The position numbers were made by a program, and so were the translations under genes. Under the pieces are notes generated by a model. That model was not told the DNA's origin. It ran no database searches and worked only from the letters and a program-made list of their open reading frames with translations. Source: Mobula hypostoma (Eukaryota). From it: a stretch of DNA of 60,000 nt. Each line of letters starts with the position of its first letter. The stretch's first letter is position 1. Of this stretch, positions 1,775 through 60,000 are shown piece by piece. The stretch spans positions 30,630,001 to 30,690,000 of the forward strand of contig NC_086108.1 of assembly GCF_963921235.1 (NCBI RefSeq), in the 5' to 3' direction.

Positions 1775-2254
1775 CTGCCGTCAGTACTGATGAAGGGTCT
1801 TGGCCTGAAACATTGACTGTACTCCTTTCCATAGATGCTTCGTGGCCTGCTGAGTTCCTCCTGCATTTTCAGTGTGTTGCATGTCTTCTGCCATGATGAG
1901 GCCACACTAAGGGTGGAGGAGCAGCACTTCATATTCCTCTGAGGTAGCCTCCAACCTGATTGCATGAACATCGATCTCTCCTGGTGAACTTTTTTTTTCT
2001 TTTTTTCTATTTCCCTCCACCGTCCCTCTTCTTCTATTCCCCAATATGGCCTCTTATCTCTTCTCTTTACCTGCCTTTCATCTCTGTCTGGTACCCCTCC
2101 TCCTTCCCTCTCTCCCATAGTGTACACTCCTCTTCTATAAGATTCCTTCTTCTTTGGCTCTTTACCTTTCCCACCAAACTGGTTTCACCTGTCACCTTGT
2201 AGCTTGTCCTTCTTCTTCTCCTCTCCCCTCCTTTTTATTCTGACATCTTGCCCC
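1775..2254 (+). mobile_element. Penelope-like element 3' part (GIY-YIG C-terminus and pseudo-LTR), split by the LTR element
   Basis: Encodes ...EATLRVEEQHFIFL*GSLQPDCMNID, typical of a PLE endonuclease C-terminus; preceded by CTGATGAAGGGTC..GAAAC motif; resumes at 12494. Confidence 0.7.
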
Positions 2255-2940
2255 TGTAACCCCCTTGGCCACCCTTAGGGTCGCTCGGCTCGCTGTTGTC
2301 TAGGGAAACAGCCCTCGGCCCCGCCAAACTGGGTAACTAGTTTGTGTGGATGCTATGTGATGTACCCCACCCCACCCAAATAACAGACAATACACCAGAT
2401 ACGATTAAATGATTTACAGTTTATAGATATTACTGGAACTACATAATTAATAGAGAATAAAATATAAAAGGGAAATAAAAGGCACCACACTTATCAAAGT
2501 TCAATCTCTTCATGCACAAACAGTTGGAGCTCGGGACCCTTCTTCTTCACCTTGCAACCCCTCGGACCACCTCGACTGTCTGTCTGGGACCAACAACGAT
2601 GGTCGACCAGACGCTCCACACAAGTCCGTCTCCATCTCTCCTCCTCGTTCGGGGTCCGACCCCATTAGCGGACTCACAGCACCTGGTCCATTCTCTGTCT
2701 CTCTCTCTCCCGCCTTCTCCCCAAAACCCCGCGCATACAATATCTTACAGATACACCAAAAACATAACCAGCGCAATTGGTTCGTAACATCTTCTCATCA
2801 GTAATGTGATTCAACAAACTGCTAGCGGGAAGGACTTTCTCAGCGTTTAACATAACAAAGAAGCATTCCCAAGTATAACATAACAAAGAAGCCATTTTAA
2901 TTAGCCTACACAGTAACATAAGAGACGAAACCCCGTTACA
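2255..2940 (-). repeat. 3' LTR
   Basis: TGTAAC...GTTACA; aligns end to end with 11796-12493 at roughly 90% identity by eye. Confidence 0.95.
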
Positions 2941-2953
2941 CTCTCCCCCCACC
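2941..2953 (-). promoter_or_regulatory. Polypurine tract
   Basis: Minus strand reads GGTGGGGGGAGAG directly before the 3' LTR. Confidence 0.85.
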
Positions 2954-3208
2954 AAATAAAGTCATGCCCTCAGGACTTCTAAATAACTCGCCGACCAGTC
3001 CTGCAGACACACAACACACAGATACACAGGTACACACAGTGGCAGTGTTCCCCAAACAGTGGACCTTACGCCCGTCCCATGGGCACTACATAGGCCAACC
3101 TATCTGGGAGCTTCTTAACCCTCCGAGACCTCTGTACCCCCTCACCTAAACCCAAAAGGTTCAGACACTACTAGGGATACCTTGGGCCTGCTTGCCAACT
3201 GCTCTTTC

Positions 3209-3436
3209 TCAGGCCACCATTACAGCTCGAAGCCCCCTGTCCTGTATCCGGGGCCCCGCTGCTTTTCCTTCCTGATCCTGCCGTAACTCAGACTGCCCAC
3301 AGCTAGCCCTCCCCACGACACCTGACTCAGTGGGAGAAGGGCCAAAGGTCTCTTCCTCAATCACGGGGAAGTTAGCGAAAGGCAGCATGTACCACATGTG
3401 CAGCACATCATCCTTCAAATCCGTATTCATCCTCAT
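3209..3436 (-). pseudogene. Probable Gypsy pol C-terminal (post-integrase) tail
   Basis: [32 protein letters not shown]... is not myosin-like and lies just upstream of the PPT; assignment by position and recalled similarity. Confidence 0.5.
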
Positions 3437-3439
3437 TCC

Positions 3440-4265
3440 CTCGATCGGTAGCCGCTGTTTAAGATTCTCCAAACTGAAACATTTAGCCAGGGCTACCCCT
3501 ACAGCCTCATGCAGTCGAGACGTCAGTTTCTTCAGGGACTCCTTCAACTCTCGCCACAGCCTCAGCAATTCTGAATCAGGGTTCTTGGCCATCTCCATCT
3601 GGGACACAGTTACCCCACCAGCTTCTTCCACCCTGACCTGAAAAGCAGCAGTTAAAGGATGGTCAGCCTCCAGATTTTTTTTTCCTGATGATGTCTTCCA
3701 GGTCAACTTTCAGTTTTTCTACTTCATTTAAACTCGCAATAGTCATCTTCAGGTTCCTTTCAAGCATTCGCCTCCCTTTTCCGAGATCTGTCCTCCATTT
3801 CTTCATCTCCTCGGGAGTGTAGTCAAACTCCCCTCCCTGGGCTCCCGGTTTTCTGTTGGCTGTAGTCAGAACACTTCCTTGATCTTCCCCAACTTGTAAG
3901 TCTTCCAAACTTTTCTGAATCGACGTCATGAGTTTCTGCTGATCCCTTTGAAGGTGGGTCATTGTTTCTTCTCGCTGGATTAATTCATCAGTACATGACC
4001 GCAGTGTCGGCTCAGAATTCCATTGCTCCTTCTCCACGTTGACGAGCGTGAATTCCAAGTCTGCAATTGTCGTCCCACAAGCACGGCACTCAGTCTCTGG
4101 CCAGCATTTCTGAGCACTCAGTTCAGCGGTGCAAATCCCCTCTCTCCCCTGTGTCTCATTCAGATTGACGACCTGGGTTTCTATCCCCAGGTCCACCACC
4201 GTCTGTTCCAACACCGGGAAGTTCAACTGGTATGTCGGGTCATTTTTCTCACATTGCACCAAACT
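3440..4265 (-). pseudogene. Captured, intronless, internally deleted sarcomeric myosin heavy-chain rod fragment (MYH16-like) inside the LTR element
   Basis: Colinear motifs [107 protein letters not shown] match the class-II myosin S2/LMM order (QEKND; AELTAKK..EDEC; IDDLELTLAKVEKE; LDDLQAEED; RLEEAGG; KKLAQRLQEA..AKCSSLEKTK.RL). Confidence 0.88.
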
Positions 4266-4289
4266 CCTCTGGCCAAAAACTCCTCCATA

Positions 4290-4639
4290 TTTGAGACTTC
4301 ACTTCGGTCGCCCGGGCTCAGCCACTCGCCTCGTCTCATAGTCCCCCCAAGCTCTAGGTGGTCATCCACTTACACCAAAACTCCACACACCTTCACTTCC
4401 CCCATGGTCTTCCTTGTGCCCCGCGGGAAGGATGCAGGGGCTCCAGATATGCCCTTGGGCATCTTTTCAGATCGGAAGAATCCTAGGGAACTAATAACGG
4501 CCGTTGTCGGCTCGACAGCCACACTCCTCGGGATCTGGCAACATCCACCCCTCAGATCCAGCACATTAAACCATGTCGCATAATCCGCACACACGCTGCC
4601 TCCATCTTCAACGGCACCAGGGTCCAGTTGCCGTGACCT
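4290..4639 (-). pseudogene. Gypsy reverse transcriptase remnant (internally deleted)
   Basis: [47 protein letters not shown] matches Gypsy RT WFSVLDLRSGYYQIP..TAFICPLGFFQFERMPQGISGAPATF..YLDD. Confidence 0.9.
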
Positions 4640-5005
4640 TTTATGGCGGCTGGCAATCACCTTTAAGGTGCATTACCTCCACCTTCTGGGTCAGGATATC
4701 TAATTCTATATATTTATATTTGTATCAAATTCTATAAAAAAATACCTGTATTCTTAAGGAACTGCACTATATATTTAAAGAAATAATCCTGTGAAACCTT
4801 CTGCCAAATGTTAATGTTAAATCGTATTTTATTCTGCGATAACTTCAAAATCAACCACCCCGTCTCTTGATTATATCTTGTGCATCTCACCAGTGCATGC
4901 TCAATGTTTCTTGTTGATTATAATAGTCACACCTCCCGTTATTGTGTTTCTTCATTAAAACAATGTACTCTTTAACCCTCTGTGCCCAAACCTCAGTCTC
5001 TTGAT
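4640..5005 (-). mobile_element. I-group (Nimb-like) LINE 3' end
   Basis: RLRFGHRGLKSTLF..CDY..ET.EHAL.RC..QFLKNTGIFYRI* followed by GGTGGAGGTAATGCACC..GCCAGCCGCCATAAAA 3' terminus. Confidence 0.6.
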
Positions 5006-5009
5006 GCTG

Positions 5010-5900
5010 TTCCCTGTGAACCTCTTGAGATTGATGCATGGTGAATATTTTGTCCACTCTCTGTCTCTTCAGGATAGACAGAATCCAGACTATGAATCAG
5101 AGGCCACTGGGTGGAAGTGGTTGAGGAGAACCTTGGTGATTACATTCTCTGTGGAGGACAGCAGTTAACTTTGTCTCTGTTCTTGAAAATATCATGTCCT
5201 TAAGATTCCCAGAATCAGGAGAAAAGCTGAGAATTTATATAGTACCTAAAGTTGCTCCCTATGAAGTTTCATGCTGTCACCAGGAATACCCATCCTCTCC
5301 CGAGACAGTTTTTGTTTCTCCTTTCGGGTAGATGTGGCTGTGAAACTGGAATAGATTATTTACCATGCGATAAATTCAAGGACACTCATGTCAAGTACAA
5401 AGTCACAGCTGAGGTGTGCTTGGAAGTATTCCTTTCCTTTCAGCAGATGCCAACTGCCTCTCTGTAAGTTCACCTCCATTCTAAGAAGTGAGTGGGGTAA
5501 GGTCTTGACTGTTTGGGCCATAGTTGGCCTTGACTGTGCTAAAGAATCAACGCATGTCAGACCATTGCTGGGCCTCCTGAACTCTTTCTGCCTACCATCT
5601 GTTCTTTAGGTCATAGGTTTTCTGTTGTACCTGAGCCATCAGGTACCTGTGGAGCTGTTTCTAGTCCCTCGAGGCTCACTGGAGTTTCTAATGGAAGAAC
5701 GCCTGTGTTTGCTGTCAATTAGTTCCAGATCTCCAGGTCATTGGCCACAAACCCGTCCTGGTGTTCTCTGGTAGAATTTCTCCTTGCCAGGGTATTTGCA
5801 AACTTTTGAGTATCCTGCACAATAAAGGCATACTGTATGTGCTGATGATGGTAGTATGTTGATTCCTTGATGGGGTGAGCTAGATGGTCACAAGATATTT
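5010..5900 (-). mobile_element. Old degraded RTE-clade LINE fragment
   Basis: Remnants such as ..SRNQHTTIISTY.. and QVQQKTYDLKNRW..FFSTVKANYGP with many disruptions. Confidence 0.6.
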
Positions 5901-6131
5901 ATTTATCTAATTCAAGTAGTTGCTTATTCTCGATGGCAAAACTTATCCTAAGAAGATTATATTGCTCTTCTAGAGGAGGTGGTGCTTCTTATCTTGTCTT
6001 TTTTTACTTAGCTGTCTCTTACTCATCATATCTTGTACAGGTTGATGATGGCAAAGAAAAAATGAGTAATTGAAACAAATCTAGTATTCATGTATACACT
6101 GCAGGCATATTCTTTATCAACACATATACAA

Positions 6132-6520
6132 TACTGCCCGTTACACTGCTGGCGTTTCGGGCAGTAATGAACGTCCTCCATCTCTGGCGGTGTTCGGGGC
6201 TTCCTTCACCACGTCAGTAGTTTCCTGTCTGTTTTCACAACTGTCAGCCATGCAAGTGCTGGGTGGAGACTTCCGAACACCATCGCACTTAGATGTAGAA
6301 GGATTCTTCATTGCTATTTCCATAACAGTTTTGTTAGCCCTGTGCTGAACCCCCAACCCTGACGGATCAGTGGACCACTGGCTTCTGCCCTTTGACCTGT
6401 TTGGCCGACCCTACCAAGAGCCAAAAGGTAAAGCCCTGACTCCAGCCCACATACTGTGGCTCTCTGGCTCATTGAGGCCTGTAAGCCTCTGAGCCACAAC
6501 AAGGTTGTTCTCCTGTTGGA
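6132..6520 (-). mobile_element. Short non-autonomous retroelement (RTE-related ends)
   Basis: GC-richer block; minus strand ends ...CCAGCAGTGTAACGGGCAGTA, resembling RTE-type 3' termini. Confidence 0.45.
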
Positions 6521-7084
6521 GATTAGCAGCCCACTCATCTTTAAAATTTAGAGCTGGTAGCAGGCCACATGATCACAATGACAACGTACAAATTCCACAC
6601 ATATGCTGCTCCAGCACCAGAGATCATGATGGAACTTGGGTCTTTGGAACTTCATGGTTACAGCTCTTCTAGCTCTGCCTCTACCACCTCTGTATCAAAG
6701 TTCAGATCTGAACAAAGTTCCCAAGCTATGATAGTGGAACGGAATTCCGAGGAGAAGTTGTCTGTGTATAATTTCTTTAAATATGAGGTAGTTATTGCAC
6801 ATTGGTTGCCACATAAATTTGACTGAGTTACGTCTTGAGCTAGTGGAAAATGTTTATAAGATAGTGGAGAGTAGGCTCTGCTGCACGAACATGTCACCTG
6901 CCAGCACACAGATACTGAAACCTACACACGCACTGTGCACATACCCTACACAAAGATCGTTCAAAGTTCAAAGATCAAGCTGAATTGTCATTCAACCATG
7001 CATGAATACCCATGTGTACAGCCAAACTAGTACTCACATAGACATACAGGCACACACGCACACACACACACTCTCATACACATA

Positions 7085-7912
7085 AGCACATCACTGGAAA
7101 ACCCTCCCATTGAGCGCATTTACACGAATCTTACATATCATAAGAAAGCAGCATTTATCATCAGATATCCCCACCCACCAGGTCATGGTCTTCTCATTGC
7201 TGCCATCAGGTGGAATGTACAAGAGTCTCAGAACTCGCACTTCCAGGATTAAGAACAGTGACTACCCCTCAACCATCAGGCTCTTGAATAAAAGAGGATA
7301 ACTACACTCACTTGCCCCATCATTGAAATGTTTCTACAACCAATGATCTCACTTTAAGGACTCTTTTTTTTTCTTGTTATCTCATGTTCTTGTTATTTAT
7401 TACTACTTACTTTTATTTCCATTTGCAAAGTTTGTTGTCTTCTGCACTCTAGTTGATCTTTCATTGCTCCTGTTATGGTTGCCATTTTATAGATTTGTTG
7501 AGTATGCCCAAAAGAAAATTAATCTCAGGGATGCGTATGGTGACATATATGTACCAGATCCCCAGCTATGGATAAGTAGCCCCGTTGCCTTGTGGGCAGC
7601 CTTGGGAGAGATGAAGGCTACAAGAGTAAACCGAAACAGCACGTCTGGAGTGGAATCCCTAAAGGGGCCGGACGTCATTGAACATCCTTCTGGTAGCTCC
7701 TGTAGTCAAACATATTGCTTCATAAGCTTTCCTTTGGACTCCACTGGTGAGGCTGAGAGGGGGATCTTGTCAACTGGGCATCTCAGGATCTCCATACCTT
7801 CCCCCAGGTTTGTGGTGATGTTGGTCAGCACCCATTGTCCTTCGAGACAGATGGATGCTCACCACCACCACCATTTTGATAATAAAATTTACTTTGAACT
7901 TTTGAACTTTGA
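7085..7912 (+). mobile_element. Rex1/Babar LINE 3' end, interrupted by a short insertion
   Basis: FSLLPSGGMYKSLRTRTSRIKNSDYPSTIRLLN C-terminus; AATAAA..(TTTGAAC)n tail. Confidence 0.8.
7555..7873 (+). mobile_element. SINE-like non-autonomous insertion with (CAC)n tail
   Basis: Interrupts the Rex1 3'UTR between GTAC and TTTGATAATAAA; ends CACCACCACCACCAT. Confidence 0.55.
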
Positions 7913-8196
7913 ACACACATATGCATGCATCCTCAAACCCTGTCATTTCCTTCTCTTACACCCTGTTCTTTGTCCACTTGTCCCTCTCCTTCCTCTCTCC
8001 ACTGAGCATGCTCCACCACTGTTTCCTTTGGCACTCTGTTCTCTTCTCCCCTCACATACAGTATCTCCATGACTAAGCCTTTGGATTCCGTTCTCCAAAG
8101 TCTGGTCTGTAGTCTTGTATTAACTTCTGTTTGGTAATACTAGATGCTAAATACATACAAGTTGCATATCTCTCTAAATTATGGAATAATTTGTAC

Positions 8197-8585
8197 TTAT
8201 TAAGGGATTGGTTAATAAGATTAATAAGATTATTAAGGGATTGGACACACTAGAGACAGAAAACATGTTCCCGATGTTGGGGGAGTCCAGAACCAGAGGC
8301 CACAATTTGAGAATAAGGGGTAGGCCATTTAGAACGGAGTTGAGGAAAAGCTTTTTCACCCAGAGAGTTGTGGATCTGTGGAATGCTCTGCCTCAGAAGG
8401 CAGTGGAGGCCAATTCTCTGGACGCTTTCAAGAGAGAGTTAGATAGAGCTCTTAAAGATAGTGGAGTCAAGGGATTTGGGGAGAAGGCAGGAACGGGGTA
8501 CTGATTGTGGATGATCAGCCATGATCGCAGAATGGCGGTGCTGGCTCAAAGGGCCGAATGGCCTACTCCTGCACCTATTGTCTAT
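8197..8585 (+). mobile_element. 5'-truncated CR1 3' end
   Basis: KIIKGLD..FPMLGESRTRGHNLRI..FFTQRVVDLWNALP; CR1 3'UTR ending CACCTATTGTCTAT. Confidence 0.92.
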
Positions 8586-8591
8586 TGACCT

Positions 8592-9030
8592 CTCTCTCAC
8601 TGAGGTGTCTTCAGCGGTCAACTCCCCTCCTTCATGGTAGTTAAGAGCATCTACTAAGAGGGTCTCACCCTCAGCTACTTTCCCCAAGCCATACCACCGC
8701 TGGGTCTCGTTTAAATTCGGTACTGGCTCAAGGCTACTACACACGTCCTCAGAAGCAACTCGACACGCTGGGTGCCCAGACAATGCCCCCATGAACTTCA
8801 GGATCATTAACCAATCATCGTCTTCTGGATAACTACTGGAACTGGTACCCAAAATCTCCGGTGTCCTTGCGGTTGTCAAGGGTAAATGCTTCAGACACCG
8901 GTTGTAAAACAAACTGTACAACAACTTGACCTGCTCCCCGGGGTCGAGGATGGCTTTAGCATCACTTCCTTCTATCCATAATAACACCCTGGGGCGTGGT
9001 CTATCTAAGCCTTCAGGAATAGAGTCTTTT
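8592..9030 (-). pseudogene. Gypsy aspartic protease remnant and linker
   Basis: [48 protein letters not shown]; the expected LDTG active site reads LDPG. Confidence 0.8.
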
Positions 9031-11113
9031 CATAGAAACGTAGAAACATAGAAAATAGGTGCAGGAGTAGGCCATTCGGCCCTTCGAGCCTGCACCGCCA
9101 TTTATTATGATCATGGCTGATCATCCAACTCAGAACCCAGCCTTCCCTCCATACCCCCTGACCCCTGTAGCCACAAGGGCCATATCTAACTTCCTTTTAA
9201 ACATAGCTAATGAACTGGCCTCAACAGTTTGCTGTGGCAGAGAATTCCACAGATTCACCACTCTCTGTGTGAAGAAGTTTTTCCTAATCTCGGTCCTAAA
9301 AGGCTTCCCCTCTATCCTCAAACTGTGACCCCTCGTTCTGGACCTCCCCAACATCGGGAACAATCTTCCCGCATCTAGCCTGTCCAATCCCTTTAGGATC
9401 TTATACGTTTCAATCAGATCCCCCCTCAATCTTCTAAATTCCAACAAGTACAAGCCCAGTTCATCCAGTCTTTCTTCATATGAAAGACCTGCCATCCCAG
9501 GAATCAATCTGGTGAACCTTCTATGTACTCCCTCTATGGCAAAGATGTCTTTCCTCAGATTAGGGGACCAAAACTGCACACAATACTCCAGGTGTGGTCT
9601 CACCAAGGCCTTGTACAACTGCAGTAGTACCTCCCTGCTCCTGTACTCGAATCCTCTCGCTATAAATGCCAGCATACCGTTCGCCTTTTTCACCGCCTGC
9701 TGTACCTGCATGCCCACTTTCAATGACTGGTGTATAATGACACCCAGGTCTCGTTGCACCTCCCCTTTTCCTAATCGGCCACCATTCAGATAATAATCTG
9801 TTTTCCTATTTTTGCCACCAAAGTGGATAACTTCACATTTATCCACATTAAATTGCATCTGCCATGAGTTTGCCCACTCACCCAACCTATCCAAGTCACC
9901 CTGCATCCTCTTAGCATCCTCCTCACTGCTAACACTGCCACCCAGCTTCGTGTCATCCGCAAACTTGGAGATGCTGCATTTAATTCCCTCATCCAAGTCA
10001 TTAATATATATTGTAAACAACTGGGGTCCCAGCACTGAGCCTTGCGGTACCCCACTGGTCACCGCCTGCCATTCTGAAAAGGTCCCGTTTATTCCCACTC
10101 TTTGCTTCCTGTCTGCTAACCAATTCTCCACCCACACCAATACCTTACCCCCAATACCGTGTGCTTTAAGTTTGCACACTAATCTCCTGTGTGGGACCTT
10201 GTCAAAAGCCTTTTGAAAATCCAAATATACCACATCCACTGGTTCTCCCCTATCCACTCTACTAGTTACATCCTCAAAAAATTCTATGAGATTCGTCAGA
10301 CATGATTTTCCTTTCACAAATCCATGCTGACTTTGTCTGATCATTTCACCGCTTTCCAAATGTGCTGTTATCACATCCTTGAAAACTGACTCCAGCAGTT
10401 TCCCCACCACCGACGTTAGGCTAACCGGCCTATAATTCCCCGGTTTCTCTCTCCCTCCTTTTTTAAAAAGTGGGGTTACATTAGCCACCCTCCAATCCTC
10501 AGGAACTAGTCCAGAATCTAACGAGTTTTGAAAAATTATCACTAATGCATCCACTATTTCTTGGGCTACTTCCCTAAGCACTCTGGGATGCAGACCATCT
10601 GGCCCTGGGGATTTATCTGCCTTCAATCCCTTCAATTTACCTAACACCACTTCCCTACTAACATGTATTTCGCTCAGTTCCTCCATCTCACTGGACCCTC
10701 TGTCCCTTACTATTTCTGGAAGATTATTTATGTCCTCCTTAGTGAAGACAGAACCAAAGTAATTATTCAATTGGTCTGCCATGTCCTTGCTCCCCATAAT
10801 CAATTCACCTGTTTCTGTTTGCAGGGGACCTACATTTGTCTTTATCAGTCTTTTCCTTTTTACATATCTATAAAAGCTTTTACAGTCCGTTTTTATGTTC
10901 TCTGCCAGTTTTCTCTCATAATCTTTTTTCCCCTTCCTAACTAAGCTCTTTGTCCTCCTCTGCTGAACTCTGAATTTCTCCCAGTCCTCAGGTGAGCCAC
11001 TTTCTCTGGCTAATTTGTATGCTACTTCTTTGGAATTGATACTATCCCTAATTTCTCCTGTCAGCCACGGGTGCACTACCTTCCTTGATTTATTCTTTTG
11101 CCAAACTGGGATG
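9031..11113 (-). mobile_element. Young 5'-truncated CR1 LINE with open RT frame, inserted between gag and protease
   Basis: SPGPDG, NYRPVSLT, QHGF, YLDFQKAFD, GVPQGS, FADD; (TTTCTATG)n tail; near-identical to 26161-29889. Confidence 0.96.
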
Positions 11114-11114
11114 T

Positions 11115-11650
11115 TTCCTTTCGGAAGTTCCTTGGTACATTGCTGGGAACGTGCTTCCCCAGAGACCCCAAGCCGTTCCCCCACTGGGCCTCCACAAGTT
11201 TCCTGACACCTCTCTGATCAGCTGAACAACTGAAGGAGGGGCTGATCCCCTGAAATGATCCCCCGGCACTGCAAGAAATTTAGCTGCCCTCCTAGCCAGA
11301 GAAGACACACTGAAAATTTTCCCCCCTCTTTCAAATAACTGACAGCTGTCACTACGGTGTAAGTGAACCTGACAGCTCTAATACCATCACCAGCCCGCCT
11401 ACTTAAACTTTAAACCAATCCCTGTTGCTCTCCCTCAACTGAGCACTGCCACGCATCTAACAACTGAGAGATCCGCTCCGCCCATGTTTCGCATGCCTCC
11501 GCCTCTCTTGGGGTGGACACTATCCCAAATGCCAGGCAGAGCCTGCCAGAGCTAGAACATTTATTCGCACACTCTACCTCCAAATCAGACCACCCTTTCC
11601 TCTCTCTCCCAACAGCATGGACAGCCCCAAGTGCCACCTCCAACTCGTCA
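11115..11650 (-). pseudogene. Gypsy gag remnant (PNMA-like capsid region)
   Basis: RLCLAFGIVSTPREAEACETWAERISQLLDAWQCS..QQGLV resembles PNMA/Gypsy gag RLRLFSG..PTP..EE.YE.W.EQ.SQLL.EWQCS..QRLV. Confidence 0.75.
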
Positions 11651-11774
11651 ATGCCAGCCTGAACTCAAACAAAGACCTCACCCACCACGCATGCAGCAAT
11701 AATGAGCAAATAACCCACAGAGACACACATTACAGATTTAAACAGGGCACCCACACAGCATACCAGTAGACCCA

Positions 11775-11792
11775 ATCCCAGACGATACCCCA
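11775..11792 (-). promoter_or_regulatory. tRNA-Pro-like primer binding site
   Basis: TGGGGTATCGTCTGGGAT, 15/18 identical to TGGGGGCTCGTCCGGGAT, 3 nt downstream of the 5' LTR. Confidence 0.8.
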
Positions 11793-11795
11793 CAG

Positions 11796-12493
11796 TGTAG
11801 CCCCCCTGGCCACCCTCAGGGTCGCTTGGCTCGCTGTCGTCCAGGGAAACAGCACTCGGCCCTGCCAATCTGGCTGATTAGTTTGTGTGGATGCTGTGTG
11901 ATGTACCCCACCCCGCCCAGATAACAGACAATACACCAGATACGATTAAATGATTTGCAGTTTATAGATATTACTGGAACTATATAATTAATAGAGAATA
12001 AAATATAAAAGGAAAATAAAAGGCACCACACTTATCAAAGTTCAATCTCTTCGTGCACAAACAGTTGGGCTCGGGACCCTTCTTCTTCACCCTGCGACCC
12101 CTCAGACCACCTCGACCGGCCGCCTGGGACCAACAACGATGGTCGACCAGACGCTCCACATGAGTCCATCTCCGTCTCCCCTCCTCGCCGAACGTCCTGC
12201 TCGGGGTCCGACCCCGTTAGTGGACTCACAGCACCTGGTCCATTCTCTGTCTCTCTCTCCCGCCTTCTCCCCAAAACCCCGCGCATACAATATCTTACAG
12301 ATACACCAAAAACATAACAACTATCGCAATTGGTTCATAACATCTTCTTATCAGTAACGTGATTCAACAAACTGCTAGGGGGAGGGACTTTCTCAGTGTT
12401 TAACATAACAAAGAAGCAATTCCAAGTATAACATAACGAAGAAGCTATTTTAATTAGCCTACACAGTAATATAAGAGACAAAACCCCCTTACA
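11796..12493 (-). repeat. 5' LTR
   Basis: TGTAGC...CTTACA, direct repeat of 2255-2940. Confidence 0.95.
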
Positions 12494-12630
12494 CCCCTTA
12501 CTTTCCAATCTTGATGAAGTGTCTCAGCCCGAACTGTTGACTGTTCATTCACTGTTGCTGCTTCCTGTCCTGCTGAGTTCCTCCAGCATTTTGTGGGTGT
12601 TGTTCTGGATCTCCAGCATCCGCAGAATTG
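12494..12630 (+). mobile_element. Continuation of the Penelope-like 3' end
   Basis: TTGATGAAGTGTCTCAGCCCGAAC...CTGCTGAGTTCCTCCAGCATTTTG parallels 1785-1880. Confidence 0.7.
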
Positions 12631-59104: not shown

Positions 59105-59885
59105 GGTGCTGACATCTCCAACTTTTCCTTGGCAGTAACAGCCAAGGACCATTGCTTTCACTCAGCTTCCAGCTCTGCCTCCATTTCATGTACCTGATTG
59201 ATCAGTAGTCTTGTCTTTTCCTCACTTTGTTCATCCTTGCCCTGCAGGTGCCTATCAAACTGAGCTTTCATGGCTTGCAGATTTACTTACAGATGTCACT
59301 TAACATCTTCAGTAGCATGGAGCTCATTGTCCAGCTCTTCCATCTGAGTTTTCATCTCTTCCATCTGTTACTCCAGAGCACGTTTTGACTCTTCCAACTC
59401 ATCTACACTCTTTCCTCCATCATCCTTGGAGCTGATGAGGCCTTCCATCTCTGCACACGGCAGCTTATTCATTTTCACCATCTCTTCCTTATGTTTCATT
59501 GCCTCCTCTAGGACACAGGTCTCCTTCTTGCATGCTTCAGTCTGTTTATGACCCCACTCCTCTGCATTCTTTAAGGAAATGTTCTTTTCCTCAGCCAGCA
59601 ACTGATCAAATTTCTTCTGTTTCTTTTCAAGATTGGAAACAACCTGCCTTTGGTGATCCAAGCCCACAACTATACCATCCAATGCCTGCTGCAGATGGTT
59701 CTTGGTCTCTTCCAATTTATCAAAGGCTGATATTTTCTCTTCTAAGCCCGAGTTAAGAACTCCATGCCTTTCTGTAGCTTCTTTGTAGCCTTTTCTGCAT
59801 TTCCCGGCAATGCAAAGCCATCATCTTGGCACTTCTTGGATTCAGTCAACTGACCCTGCAGGACAGTTAGTAATTCATTCTCACA
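59105..59885 (-). pseudogene. Processed non-muscle myosin II heavy-chain rod pseudogene (MYH9-like)
   Basis: [106 protein letters not shown]; stops and a frameshift; no introns. Confidence 0.9.
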
Positions 59886-60000
59886 TTGGTTCTCAATGAT
59901 GTCTTTATCTAGAATGTTTGCACAGTAATATCCAGAGCTGATAAGCTTAAGAGACACTAGCTGTTGAAGCATCGTTGCTTAGTCATTCTCCATATCCAGT

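What the first reader, a model, noticed from the sequence alone, without database searches (positions are those of the whole stretch)
3440..4265. Gypsy LTR element that has captured a spliced sarcomeric myosin heavy-chain mRNA in place of RNase H/integrase
Seen: inside a structurally complete LTR unit (LTRs, CCCC TSD, PBS, PPT), about 830 bp between the RT remnant and the pol tail translate into colinear class-II myosin rod motifs. They are in the element's sense orientation, with no introns and no poly-A or target duplication of their own. Established: this rod region spans several exons in vertebrate MYH genes, and LTR elements can acquire cellular mRNA by RT template switching, as in retroviral transduction. 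Inference: this is one member of a mobile chimeric family that carries a muscle-myosin coiled coil and is mobilised in trans. I cannot tell whether it has been described.
Basis: partly seen in the sequence, partly recalled or inferred. Interest (0 to 1): 0.92.

Follow-up and report, generated by a model that had tools for sequence, protein, structure and literature searches.

The report
Ray retrotransposon family carrying myosin exons
This is one worn copy of an abundant jumping-gene family in stingrays and manta rays that long ago swapped its integrase gene for spliced exons of a jaw-muscle-type myosin gene and has spread as that hybrid ever since.

Summary
Window 2255-12493 (minus strand) is an LTR element with 4-bp CCCC target duplications, a primer-binding site and a polypurine tract. 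Window 3449-4196 is homologous to the class II myosin rod (PDB Myosin-7, E 1.4e-16, 171 residues without a gap).

It is one copy of a ~4.2-kb non-autonomous Ty3/Gypsy family. The own-genome search gave 1,824 first-look candidates, and 39 of 40 scored places match at 91-93%. Of 12 further copies, 7 have exact 4-bp duplications, all different.

Older subfamilies and an autonomous relative show what happened. Intronless exons of the host MYH16-type gene (about E888 to K1428) replaced the integrase region, in frame. They lie between the RNase H end and the pol C-terminal tail. Both junctions fall within a codon of exon borders.

The same chimera, with the same internal jump and 3' junction, appears in predicted proteins of Mobula, Hypanus and Hemitrygon, so the capture is old.

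The fused ~809-codon frame was open in the progenitor of the young burst. Its amino-acid sequence nevertheless drifts like neutral DNA. Five literature searches found no description. I rate it a new variant of retroviral-type transduction, interest about 0.6.

The parts
2251..2254 (.). Target-site duplication CCCC (3' side of the element)
   Evidence: the same 4 bases stand at 12494-12497.
2255..2940 (-). 3' LTR (TGTAAC...GTTACA on the + strand)
   Evidence: 92.8% identical to 11796-12493; matched by all 29 other loci.
2941..2953 (-). Polypurine tract (GGTGGGGGGAGAG in element sense), next to the 3' LTR
2954..3211 (-). 3' untranslated stretch, plus the family's stop codon at 3209-3211
   Evidence: the long frames of other copies end at the matching place.
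3212..3448 (-). Pol C-terminal tail remnant (...[31 protein letters not shown]...)
   Evidence: homologous to pol residues about 1098-1140 of the autonomous relative L054 ([40 protein letters not shown]).
3449..4196 (-). Intronless MYH16-type myosin rod fragment. It is a mosaic of residues about 907-1081, 1088-1097, 1144-1172 and 1378-1415 of Callorhinchus myosin-16-like P0013. A frameshift lies near 3672-3700.
   Evidence: exon map; one-base differences at 3671-3674.
4197..4265 (-). RNase H remnant (SLVQCEKNDPTYQLNFPVLEQTV)
   Evidence: it aligns to SRSLSPSERNYPTHKLEFLALKWAV of the autonomous pol. Older copies keep the whole RNase H.
4266..4639 (-). Reverse transcriptase remnant. YVDD is kept; GYYQ has become GCCQ. 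This copy has a 10-base deletion at about 4346.
4640..8586 (.). Nested insertion(s) absent from the other copies
   Evidence: all 29 loci join window 4639 directly to about 8587.
8587..9031 (-). Protease-region remnant (AILDPGEQ; the autonomous relative has AILDTGSQ)
9032..11113 (-). Nested non-LTR (LINE) insertion with a 695-aa reverse transcriptase frame
   Evidence: Pfam was not run on it; I named it from its FADDTKL-type motifs, from recall.
11114..11774 (-). Leader and Gag N-terminal remnant (PNMA-type)
   Evidence: (PNMA E 2.2e-5, 24.4 bits, just under the cut-off of 25).
11775..11792 (-). Primer-binding-site-like stretch (TGGGGTATCGTCTGGGAT), 3 bases behind the 5' LTR
   Evidence: Other copies and L054 read TGGGGGCT..GTCCGGGAT. 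The likeness to a tRNA-Pro site is recalled, not tested.
11796..12493 (-). 5' LTR
12494..12497 (.). Target-site duplication CCCC (5' side)

Best explanation
Window 2255-12493 (minus strand) is a decayed copy, carrying two nested insertions, of a ~4.2-kb non-autonomous Ty3/Gypsy LTR retrotransposon family of myliobatiform rays.

Origin. The family descends from a Gypsy lineage with a PNMA-type Gag. In that lineage the integrase-coding part of pol (about residues 582-1097 of the autonomous relative L054) was replaced by host exons. The replacement is in sense and in frame. The exons are intronless and come from the host MYH16-type sarcomeric myosin rod, about E888 to K1428.

Later changes. Internal deletions shortened the insert. 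The 1172->1378 jump is present in all chimeras seen. The young subfamily lost further pieces of the insert and most of RNase H.

How the capture arose (inferred). It was retroviral-oncogene-type transduction: a chimeric element-host RNA in which at least one junction was made by splicing, completed by recombination during reverse transcription.

How it moves (inferred). With no integrase and degenerate protease and RT motifs, copies must be made by proteins of autonomous relatives. Such relatives exist in the genome with long open gag and pol frames.

What is shown. The chimera transposed as a unit many times.

The reading frame (inferred from counts). The single fused frame runs from just behind the primer-binding site to about 260 bases before the 3' LTR. 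It was open in the progenitor of the young burst, although its amino-acid sequence changes at the neutral rate. Selection therefore acts on keeping the frame open, not on a myosin function.
For: Specific homology:
- PDB Myosin-7 E 1.4e-16, with only striated myosins among the real hits.
- Of the 120 listed hits to the Hypanus chimera P0007, one is a chimera and one a Gypsy pol. The other 118 are myosins, mostly named myosin-16/MYH16.
- BLASTP of P0003 against Callorhinchus myosin-16-like gives E 8e-22.
- Older copies hit the host MYH16-type gene exon by exon: 15 HSPs, E down to 1e-13. They give 2 weak HSPs to one of three other MYH paralogues and none to the other two.

No introns: host exon borders at about 887/888, 963, 998, 1028 and 1076 are crossed without a break.

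A family that moves as a unit:
- 1,824 first-look candidates; 39 of 40 scored places match at 91-93%.
- 29 of 29 loci are colinear with window 2255-4639 + 8587-9031 + 11114-12493.
- Of 12 copies, 7 have exact 4-bp duplications (all different), 3 match at 3 of 4 bases, 1 mismatches and 1 was undetermined.

The flanks are pol:
- Six older relatives (72-78% DNA identity) carry gag-PR-RT remnants. In four of them a whole RNase H runs straight into the myosin segment.
- L054 has RVT_1, RT_RNaseH, Integrase_H2C2 and rve in that order, a PNMA Gag (E 5.5e-37), and the same C-terminal tail motif.

Older copies are nearer to MYH16: 42-46% identity in 3 of 3 older copies, against 31-33% in 3 of 3 young copies, over one 175-residue block.

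Junctions: 5' at ...cacag|GAGCAA (E888); 3' at ATCGAG(CTG)GAAAAG|gtaatg (K1428).

Same chimera elsewhere: it is in proteins of Mobula birostris, M. hypostoma, Hypanus sabinus and Hemitrygon akajei.

Open frame:
- Frames of up to 716 aa were listed, and one open stretch of 824 aa was reported.
- Over 809 codon columns no stop is shared by more than 9 of 29 copies, and 45 of 99 stops are CGA>TGA.
- Random substitutions make a stop 4.3% of the time. The chance of no stop after 100-200 substitutions is 1.5% to 0.03%.

Neutral drift:
- Pairwise differences among young copies fall on codon positions 0.318/0.343/0.339.
- Fixed young-versus-old differences are 13 synonymous against 54 non-synonymous in myosin plus tail, and 28 against 70 upstream. 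The neutral expectation for the synonymous share is 0.22-0.30.
Against: - Pfam does not call a myosin tail in the young copies. An older copy scores 38.0 bits against a cut-off of 38.1.
- All 29 copies examined carry 1-12 stops, and 28 of 29 carry frameshifting indels, so no copy seen is intact.
- The helper is not shown. L054 shares only patches of LTR similarity with the chimera, 73-82% over 65-166 bases.
- The claim of selection for an open frame assumes that at least about 100 substitutions lie on the lineage to the young progenitor.
- The exon-border coincidences hold to within about one codon. The 3' one needs a 24-base and a 3-base deletion in the alignment.
- L054 has no GT or AG at the matching positions, and short microhomology (GAG; GAAAAG/GAGAAG) also fits plain template switching.
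- No relic of the element lies in 20 kb of the host MYH16-type gene.
Confidence: 0.85

Rival explanations
1. The capture used reverse-transcriptase template switching alone. There were two switches between element RNA and a co-packaged mature MYH16 mRNA at short microhomologies, and splicing played no part in making the junctions.
For: Microhomology is present at both junctions. At the 5' junction GAG is shared by pol (..GAGGAG) and the exon start. At the 3' junction GAAAAG is joined to GAGAAG. The autonomous relative has neither GT nor AG at the matching positions. The internal jumps (1172->1378 and the 24-base loss) are not at exon borders and look like such switches or later deletions.
Against: Both outer junctions lie within about a codon of exon borders. 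My rough estimate of the chance is about 0.06 for each and about 0.004 jointly, given exons of 30-80 codons.
Confidence: 0.35
2. The myosin segment is an adaptive module. Its coiled coil dimerises or multimerises the fused Gag-PR-RT remnant protein, and this helps the non-autonomous element to be packaged.
For: The segment is always in frame, and the frame was kept open. Hydrophobic residues at heptad a/d positions are still enriched: 0.52 against 0.19 elsewhere, compared with 0.66 against 0.16 in MYH16.
Against: Fixed differences between subfamilies show no excess of synonymous changes (13 of 67) and no third-position excess (31/41/24). Identity to MYH16 at a/d positions is no higher than elsewhere in the young copies: 0.32-0.36 against 0.30-0.33. 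Different lineages have deleted different parts of the segment.
Confidence: 0.12
3. A LINE-made processed pseudogene of a myosin gene landed once inside an LTR element, and the composite was then amplified.
For: LINEs are active in this genome. One is nested in this very copy, and other intronless myosin pieces exist.
Against: The insert is an internal fragment with no poly-A and no duplication of its own. It is in frame on both sides and it replaces the integrase region rather than adding to it.
Confidence: 0.03
4. The likeness to myosin is generic coiled-coil composition, not homology.
For: Pfam Myosin_tail_1 is not called on the window ORFs. Coiled coils are compositionally biased.
Against: The match is a gapless 171-residue alignment to one place in the rod. 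It is colinear exon by exon with one host paralogue only. Older copies come closer to MYH16. There are DNA-level matches at both junctions.
Confidence: 0.01

Closest known systems
Acutely transforming retroviruses (gag-onc type transduction of host cDNA); recalled, not read here
   Same: An intronless host insert in sense orientation, fused in frame to upstream element coding sequence. It replaces essential pol sequence, so the chimera is defective and needs a helper. One junction is compatible with splicing and one with recombination during reverse transcription.
   Different: The carrier is a Ty3/Gypsy retrotransposon of a ray, not a retrovirus. The cargo is a structural muscle gene fragment with no growth function. 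The chimera is germ-line, ancient, and amplified to about a thousand or more copies. Its protein sequence is not conserved.
Gene-fragment capture by plant LTR retrotransposons (maize Bs1 recalled; review PMC13317346 and PMC2774510 seen as search listing and abstract only)
   Same: An LTR retrotransposon carrying a host gene fragment between its LTRs and spreading as a non-autonomous family.
   Different: This case is in a vertebrate. The insert is exon-exact at both ends, in frame with the element's remnant polyprotein, and shared across ray families.
Gene capture in ancient crocodilian endogenous retroviruses (PMC4299795; search listing and abstract only)
   Same: A germ-line retroelement of a vertebrate that carries host-derived sequence.
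   Different: Different superfamily (endogenous retrovirus against Ty3/Gypsy) and different cargo. I did not read the paper's details.
Transposon families whose family sequence holds host protein fragments (Abrusan et al. 2013, PMC3597677; passages read through a term search)
   Same: Host-derived coding sequence that has become part of the family sequence of a transposon.
   Different: That paper's main text contains 'myosin' and 'coiled' zero times. Its supplements were not looked at.
Autonomous Ty3/Gypsy elements with PNMA-type Gag in the same genome (L054)
   Same: Gag N-terminus, protease region, RT, RNase H, pol C-terminal tail, LTR termini (TGT...TTACA) and primer-binding-site type are homologous.
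   Different: The chimera lacks most of Gag, the integrase zinc and core domains, and (in the young subfamily) most of RNase H. It has myosin exons in their place.

Membership tests
Ty3/Gypsy (Metaviridae) LTR retrotransposon | Two LTRs with TG...CA termini flanked by a short (4-6 bp) target duplication | tested here: met
   for the window copy (CCCC). In one search, 7 of 12 other copies have exact 4-bp duplications and 3 more match at 3 of 4 bases.
Ty3/Gypsy (Metaviridae) LTR retrotransposon | Primer-binding site behind the 5' LTR and polypurine tract before the 3' LTR | tested here: met
   Which tRNA primes it (Pro-like) is recalled only.
Ty3/Gypsy (Metaviridae) LTR retrotransposon | RT and RNase H related to Gypsy pol | tested here: met
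   The chimera P0006 against Gypsy pol P0009 gives E 1e-17. The older copies hit P0009 residues 302-443 (five of six) and 587-779 (four of six). RVT_1 alone stays below Pfam's cut-off in the young copies.
Ty3/Gypsy (Metaviridae) LTR retrotransposon | Pol order PR-RT-RNase H-integrase | tested here: not met
   No integrase match in any chimera. The order is met in the autonomous relative L054. The chimera is therefore a defective derivative, not an autonomous member.
LARD/TRIM-type non-autonomous LTR elements | Internal region without coding capacity | tested here: not met
   The progenitor had an ~809-codon open frame covering most of the internal region.
Retroviral-type transduction chimera | Host insert lacks the host gene's introns | tested here: met
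Retroviral-type transduction chimera | Insert in sense orientation, fused in frame, replacing element genes | tested here: met
   It replaces pol residues about 582-1097 of L054, which include Integrase_H2C2 and rve.
Retroviral-type transduction chimera | Depends on a helper element for its proteins | not testable with these tools
   Inferred from the missing integrase and the degenerate motifs. Autonomous relatives with long open frames exist.
LINE-made processed pseudogene | Poly-A tail and 7-20-bp duplication at the insert's own borders | tested here: not met
   Junction sequences of four (5') and three (3') older copies.
Class II myosin heavy chain (MYH16 type) | Motor domain and neck ahead of the rod | tested here: not met
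   No chimera matches P0013 before residue 883.
Class II myosin heavy chain (MYH16 type) | Rod recognised by Pfam Myosin_tail_1 above its cut-off | tested here: not met
   Young copies give no hit. One older copy scores 38.0 bits against 38.1. Homology is shown by other means.

The most novel reading that the evidence does not exclude
A Ty3/Gypsy retrotransposon acquired a block of host exons by splicing at both ends: element donor to the MYH16 exon-888 acceptor, and the exon-1428 donor to an acceptor in the pol tail. This would be exon trapping by a retrotransposon. The resulting integrase-less chimera has survived for roughly the age of the stingray-manta split. Selection keeps its ~800-codon frame open for translation as such, for instance to shield the genomic RNA from nonsense-mediated decay or to satisfy a cis requirement. 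The encoded protein, myosin coiled coil included, is free to drift.
Probability: 0.3. Interest if true: 0.8.

Novelty: new variant of a known kind. Interest (0 to 1): 0.6.

Why it matters
1. Documented transduction of host exons by LTR retrotransposons in animals is, as far as I recall, uncommon. Here the whole history can be read from fossil copies: an autonomous relative, older chimeras with the full RNase H and a longer insert, and a young burst.

2. Junctions that coincide with exon borders give a testable handle on how such captures arise, whether by splicing or by template switching.

3. A long frame kept open without amino-acid constraint in a non-autonomous element is an unusual selection regime. 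It could be tested with ribosome profiling and RNA-decay assays.

4. There is a practical consequence. Ray gene sets already contain models built on this element. They are named 'putative uncharacterized protein MYH16', 'myosin-16-like', 'myosin-7B-like', 'transmembrane protein 192 isoform X1' and 'succinate dehydrogenase assembly factor 3 isoform X1'. Myosin gene counts and isoform lists in these species need masking of this family.

Tried and rejected
- Pfam on four window ORFs: no myosin family at E<=1.
- blastn of the window's myosin stretch against three other host MYH genes gave nothing. The tblastx line in the same script also printed nothing, probably because the program is not installed. 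tblastn gave only E>=0.05. This is explained later by the source being the MYH16-type paralogue and by the deep divergence.
- NG86 dN/dS among young copies was 0.65-0.75. I do not read this as constraint. Codon positions are hit equally, and the method undercounts synonymous sites when transitions and CpG decay dominate.
- RNA evidence: no RNA holder listed. Contigs of four runs from two coded organisms (kind only guessed as RNA) hold many variants of the family over the whole stretch. That shows presence, not expression.
- Earlier findings of this scan: nothing for this sequence.
- A search for a relic of the element in 20 kb of the host MYH16-type gene found none.
As a result only one autonomous relative was read, and for the target duplications only the ends of 12 copies.
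- Structure and complex prediction were not run, because the report does not claim that the segment binds anything.
- Repbase and Dfam could not be consulted, so a family entry there cannot be excluded.
- Literature: five searches and one term search inside a paper found no myosin-carrying LTR element.

Full report
**What is in the window**

Direct repeats at 2255-2940 and 11796-12493 are LTRs with TGTAAC/TGTAGC...TTACA termini. They differ at 49 of 683 aligned bases (41 transitions, 8 transversions; K2P 0.077). CCCC stands on both outer sides (2251-2254 and 12494-12497). On the minus strand a purine run (2941-2953) abuts the 3' LTR. A TGG-led 18-mer (11775-11792) lies 3 bases behind the 5' LTR. 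Its likeness to a tRNA-Pro binding site is recalled, not tested.

On the same strand the ORF 3663-4298 matches Myosin-7 residues 912-1082 without a gap, E 1.4e-16. Twelve of the 15 PDB sequences at E<=10 are striated-muscle myosin II heavy chains, and the other three are weak and unrelated. Pfam called no myosin family on the four window ORFs I gave it.

**It is a family**

The stretch 3200-4700 finds 1,824 first-look candidates in the window's own 3.48-Gb assembly. Forty were scored. One is the window itself. Thirty-nine cover nearly the whole probe up to window 4639 at 91-93% identity, and one further short match was listed.

All 29 fetched loci are colinear with window 2255-4639, then 8587-9031, then 11114-12493. 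The canonical element is therefore about 4.2 kb. The window copy holds two nested insertions, at 4640-8586 and 9032-11113. The second has a 695-aa LINE-type RT frame.

I read both ends of 12 further copies:
- Seven have exact 4-bp duplications, all different: TTTC, CTAT, CATA, GTTA, TATG, and TACT and TACA after I shifted a mutated LTR end by eye.
- Three match at 3 of 4 bases.
- One does not match.
- One end was not found.

The chimera has therefore transposed as a unit many times.

**What flanks the myosin**

Other copies carry long frames through the whole internal region. These are 716, 677 and 568 aa in L004, L019 and L024, and an 824-aa open stretch was reported for L004. In order, the frame reads:
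- a Gag N-terminal remnant (PNMA E 2.2e-5, just under the cut-off);
- a protease remnant (AILDPGAQ);
- an RT remnant (GCCQIP ... YVDD);
- the myosin segment;
- a tail (..[31 protein letters not shown]..).

A search of the genome with Callorhinchus myosin-16-like residues 890-1456 brought up older relatives. Six were fetched. All are the same chimera at 72-78% DNA identity to the window element. In four of them a complete RNase H, ending ...NIDVDVLSRRVPEG, runs straight into the myosin segment. The window's 4197-4265 (SLVQCEKNDPTYQLNFPVLEQTV) is what is left of that RNase H.

An RNase H query found 150 scored matches among 2,377 candidates, some inside open frames of over 1,000 aa. I read one of them, L054. 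It has:
- partial LTRs differing at 24 of 510 bases;
- a 370-aa Gag (PNMA, E 5.5e-37);
- a pol frame of 1,453 aa with RVT_1, RT_RNaseH, Integrase_H2C2 and rve in that order;
- the same tail 230 residues behind the integrase core: [40 protein letters not shown].

The insert thus replaces pol residues about 582-1097, which is the integrase region. Its 'in place of RNase H/integrase' holds for this copy, but the RNase H loss is secondary.

**Where the insert came from**

The Hypanus chimera P0007, searched against longer proteins, gave 120 listed hits. One is a chimera and one a Gypsy pol. The other 118 are myosins, most named myosin-16 or MYH16.

The host has an MYH16-type gene at C36:112.717-112.737 Mb. 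Its exon borders, in Callorhinchus numbering, lie at about 887/888, 963, 998, 1028, 1076, 1124, 1155, 1237, 1275, 1318 and 1428.

Translations of older copies hit this gene exon by exon, in order: 15 HSPs with E down to 1e-13. The same rod region of three other host MYH genes gave two weak HSPs in one gene and none in the other two. The element joins these exons without introns.

Over one 175-residue block, identity to Callorhinchus MYH16 is 42-46% in 3 of 3 older copies and 31-33% in 3 of 3 young copies. Fossil copies thus approach the source gene, as expected for a host origin followed by drift.

**Anatomy of the insert**

In the older copies the segment runs from E888 to about residue 1172. 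It then jumps to 1378 and ends near 1428. The 1172->1378 jump and the 3' junction are the same in old copies, young copies and the Hypanus and Hemitrygon proteins. This argues for a single capture. The young subfamily has lost three further pieces: residues 888-906 together with most of RNase H, residues 1082-1087, and residues 1098-1143. None of the internal breakpoints is at an exon border.

**The two outer junctions**

At the 5' side the host reads ...ttccacag|GAGCAAGAAAAT... (E888, the first codon of an exon). The older chimeras read ...GACGAG|GAGCAGGAGAGT.... Homology to the autonomous pol (..GCCGAGGAG|TGG) reaches the same GAG.

At the 3' side the host exon ends ATCGAGCTGGAAAAG|gtaatg (K1428). 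The chimeras read ATCGAG-GAAAAG|GAGAAGAATACG, and the autonomous tail reads ..CCTCGAGAAGGGATACG. This alignment needs a 24-base and a 3-base deletion just upstream.

Both junctions therefore fall within about a codon of exon borders. I estimate the chance at roughly 0.06 for each. Both also show short microhomology. I infer that at least one junction was made by splicing of a chimeric element-host RNA, as in the classical model for retroviral oncogene capture. Plain template switching remains possible. L054 has no GT or AG at the matching places. No relic of the element lies in the 20 kb of the host gene that I read.

**Selection**

Among the 29 young copies, pairwise differences fall equally on the three codon positions: 0.318/0.343/0.339. 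Every copy has 1-12 stops, and 28 of 29 have frameshifting indels. No stop is shared by more than 9 of 29 copies over 809 codon columns, and 45 of 99 stops are CGA>TGA. The progenitor of the burst therefore had an open frame of about 809 codons, and the copies have decayed neutrally since.

Differences fixed between the young copies and the older copies also look neutral:

| Region | Usable codons | Older copies compared | Differences at codon positions 1/2/3 | Synonymous | Non-synonymous |
|---|---|---|---|---|---|
| Myosin plus tail | 209 | 5 | 31/41/24 | 13 | 54 |
| Upstream | 304 | 4 | 52/55/64 | 28 | 70 |

The neutral expectation for the synonymous share is 0.22-0.30.

Yet 4.3% of random substitutions in this frame create a stop. 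After 100-200 substitutions the chance of none is 1.5% to 0.03%. Because the young copies are further from MYH16 than the old ones, much of the change lies on their lineage.

My reading, at about 0.7, is selection for an open frame without selection on the protein. Heptad a/d positions are still hydrophobic in 52% of cases, against 66% in MYH16 and 16-19% elsewhere. Identity at those positions is no higher than elsewhere. I see no evidence that a coiled-coil function is maintained.

**Distribution**

A near-length search found only five proteins, from Mobula birostris and Hypanus sabinus. An exhaustive search with an older copy's myosin-tail piece found 483 proteins at E<=0.001. Of the best 150, I looked up ten. 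Nine of them reach past the 3' junction:
- Seven of those nine are named, from Mobula hypostoma, M. birostris, Hypanus sabinus and Hemitrygon akajei.
- Of the four named ones whose sequences I read, three are chimeras and one is a host-gene model that runs into the element.
- The two unnamed ones are ordinary myosin fragments.

All four named species are in Myliobatiformes, in two families. Element ORFs are usually masked from gene sets, so absence elsewhere is weak evidence.

**Expression**

No RNA holder was listed. Contigs of four runs from two coded organisms show the family's presence only.

**Novelty**

Five full-text searches and a term search in the most relevant survey of host fragments in transposons ('myosin' occurs 0 times in the main text) found no description. 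Repbase and Dfam were not available.

The kind, transduction of host cDNA by an LTR retroelement, is known. Four things are new:
- the carrier and host, a Ty3/Gypsy element of a cartilaginous fish;
- the cargo;
- the exon-exact ends;
- the age and copy number, and the open but unconstrained frame.

Noticed in passing
window 59113-60000 (minus strand; runs off the window end): A second intronless myosin rod fragment from a different paralogue. It is 82-90% identical in DNA to four consecutive exons of the MYH gene at C45:100.200-100.202 Mb. Pfam Myosin_tail_1 scores 271.8 bits over profile 552-778, with 4 stops. Seven related places lie elsewhere (72-81%). It abuts a ~180-base high-copy repeat.
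   Followed up: partly
G000:C68:15.31-15.89 Mb (L067 = one unit): Eight copies, spaced 65-117 kb apart, of an intron-poor MYH16-like pseudogene unit. It covers residues about 815-1510 in 3.8 kb and is 70-74% identical in DNA to the host MYH16-type exons. It has no pol sequence, so it is not the chimera.
   Followed up: partly
Proteins P0006, P0129 (Hypanus sabinus); P0132, P0133, P0278 (Mobula hypostoma): Public gene models built on this element. Examples are 'transmembrane protein 192 isoform X1' (729 aa, colinear with the element frame from Gag remnant to tail) and 'succinate dehydrogenase assembly factor 3 isoform X1' (a host N-terminus running into the element's myosin-tail part). Several 'myosin-like' names come from the same source.
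   Followed up: partly
L054:5990-6640 (C40:64.40 Mb): The autonomous relative's pol tail holds a tandem array of 84-base units (..GEGVAEPPVLQPGL..), open in all three frames.
   Followed up: no
G000:C12:196.934-196.941 Mb and its inverted twin near 197.104-197.109 Mb: A Gypsy RNase H match (75% to the chimera's) lies about 5.5 kb from another intronless myosin-tail fragment (profile 856-984). This could be a second, independent element-myosin association.
   Followed up: no
window 8224-8585 and 9048-9404: Inverted copies of a common interspersed repeat (74-95% complementary) flank the protease remnant. One lies in each nested insertion.
   Followed up: no
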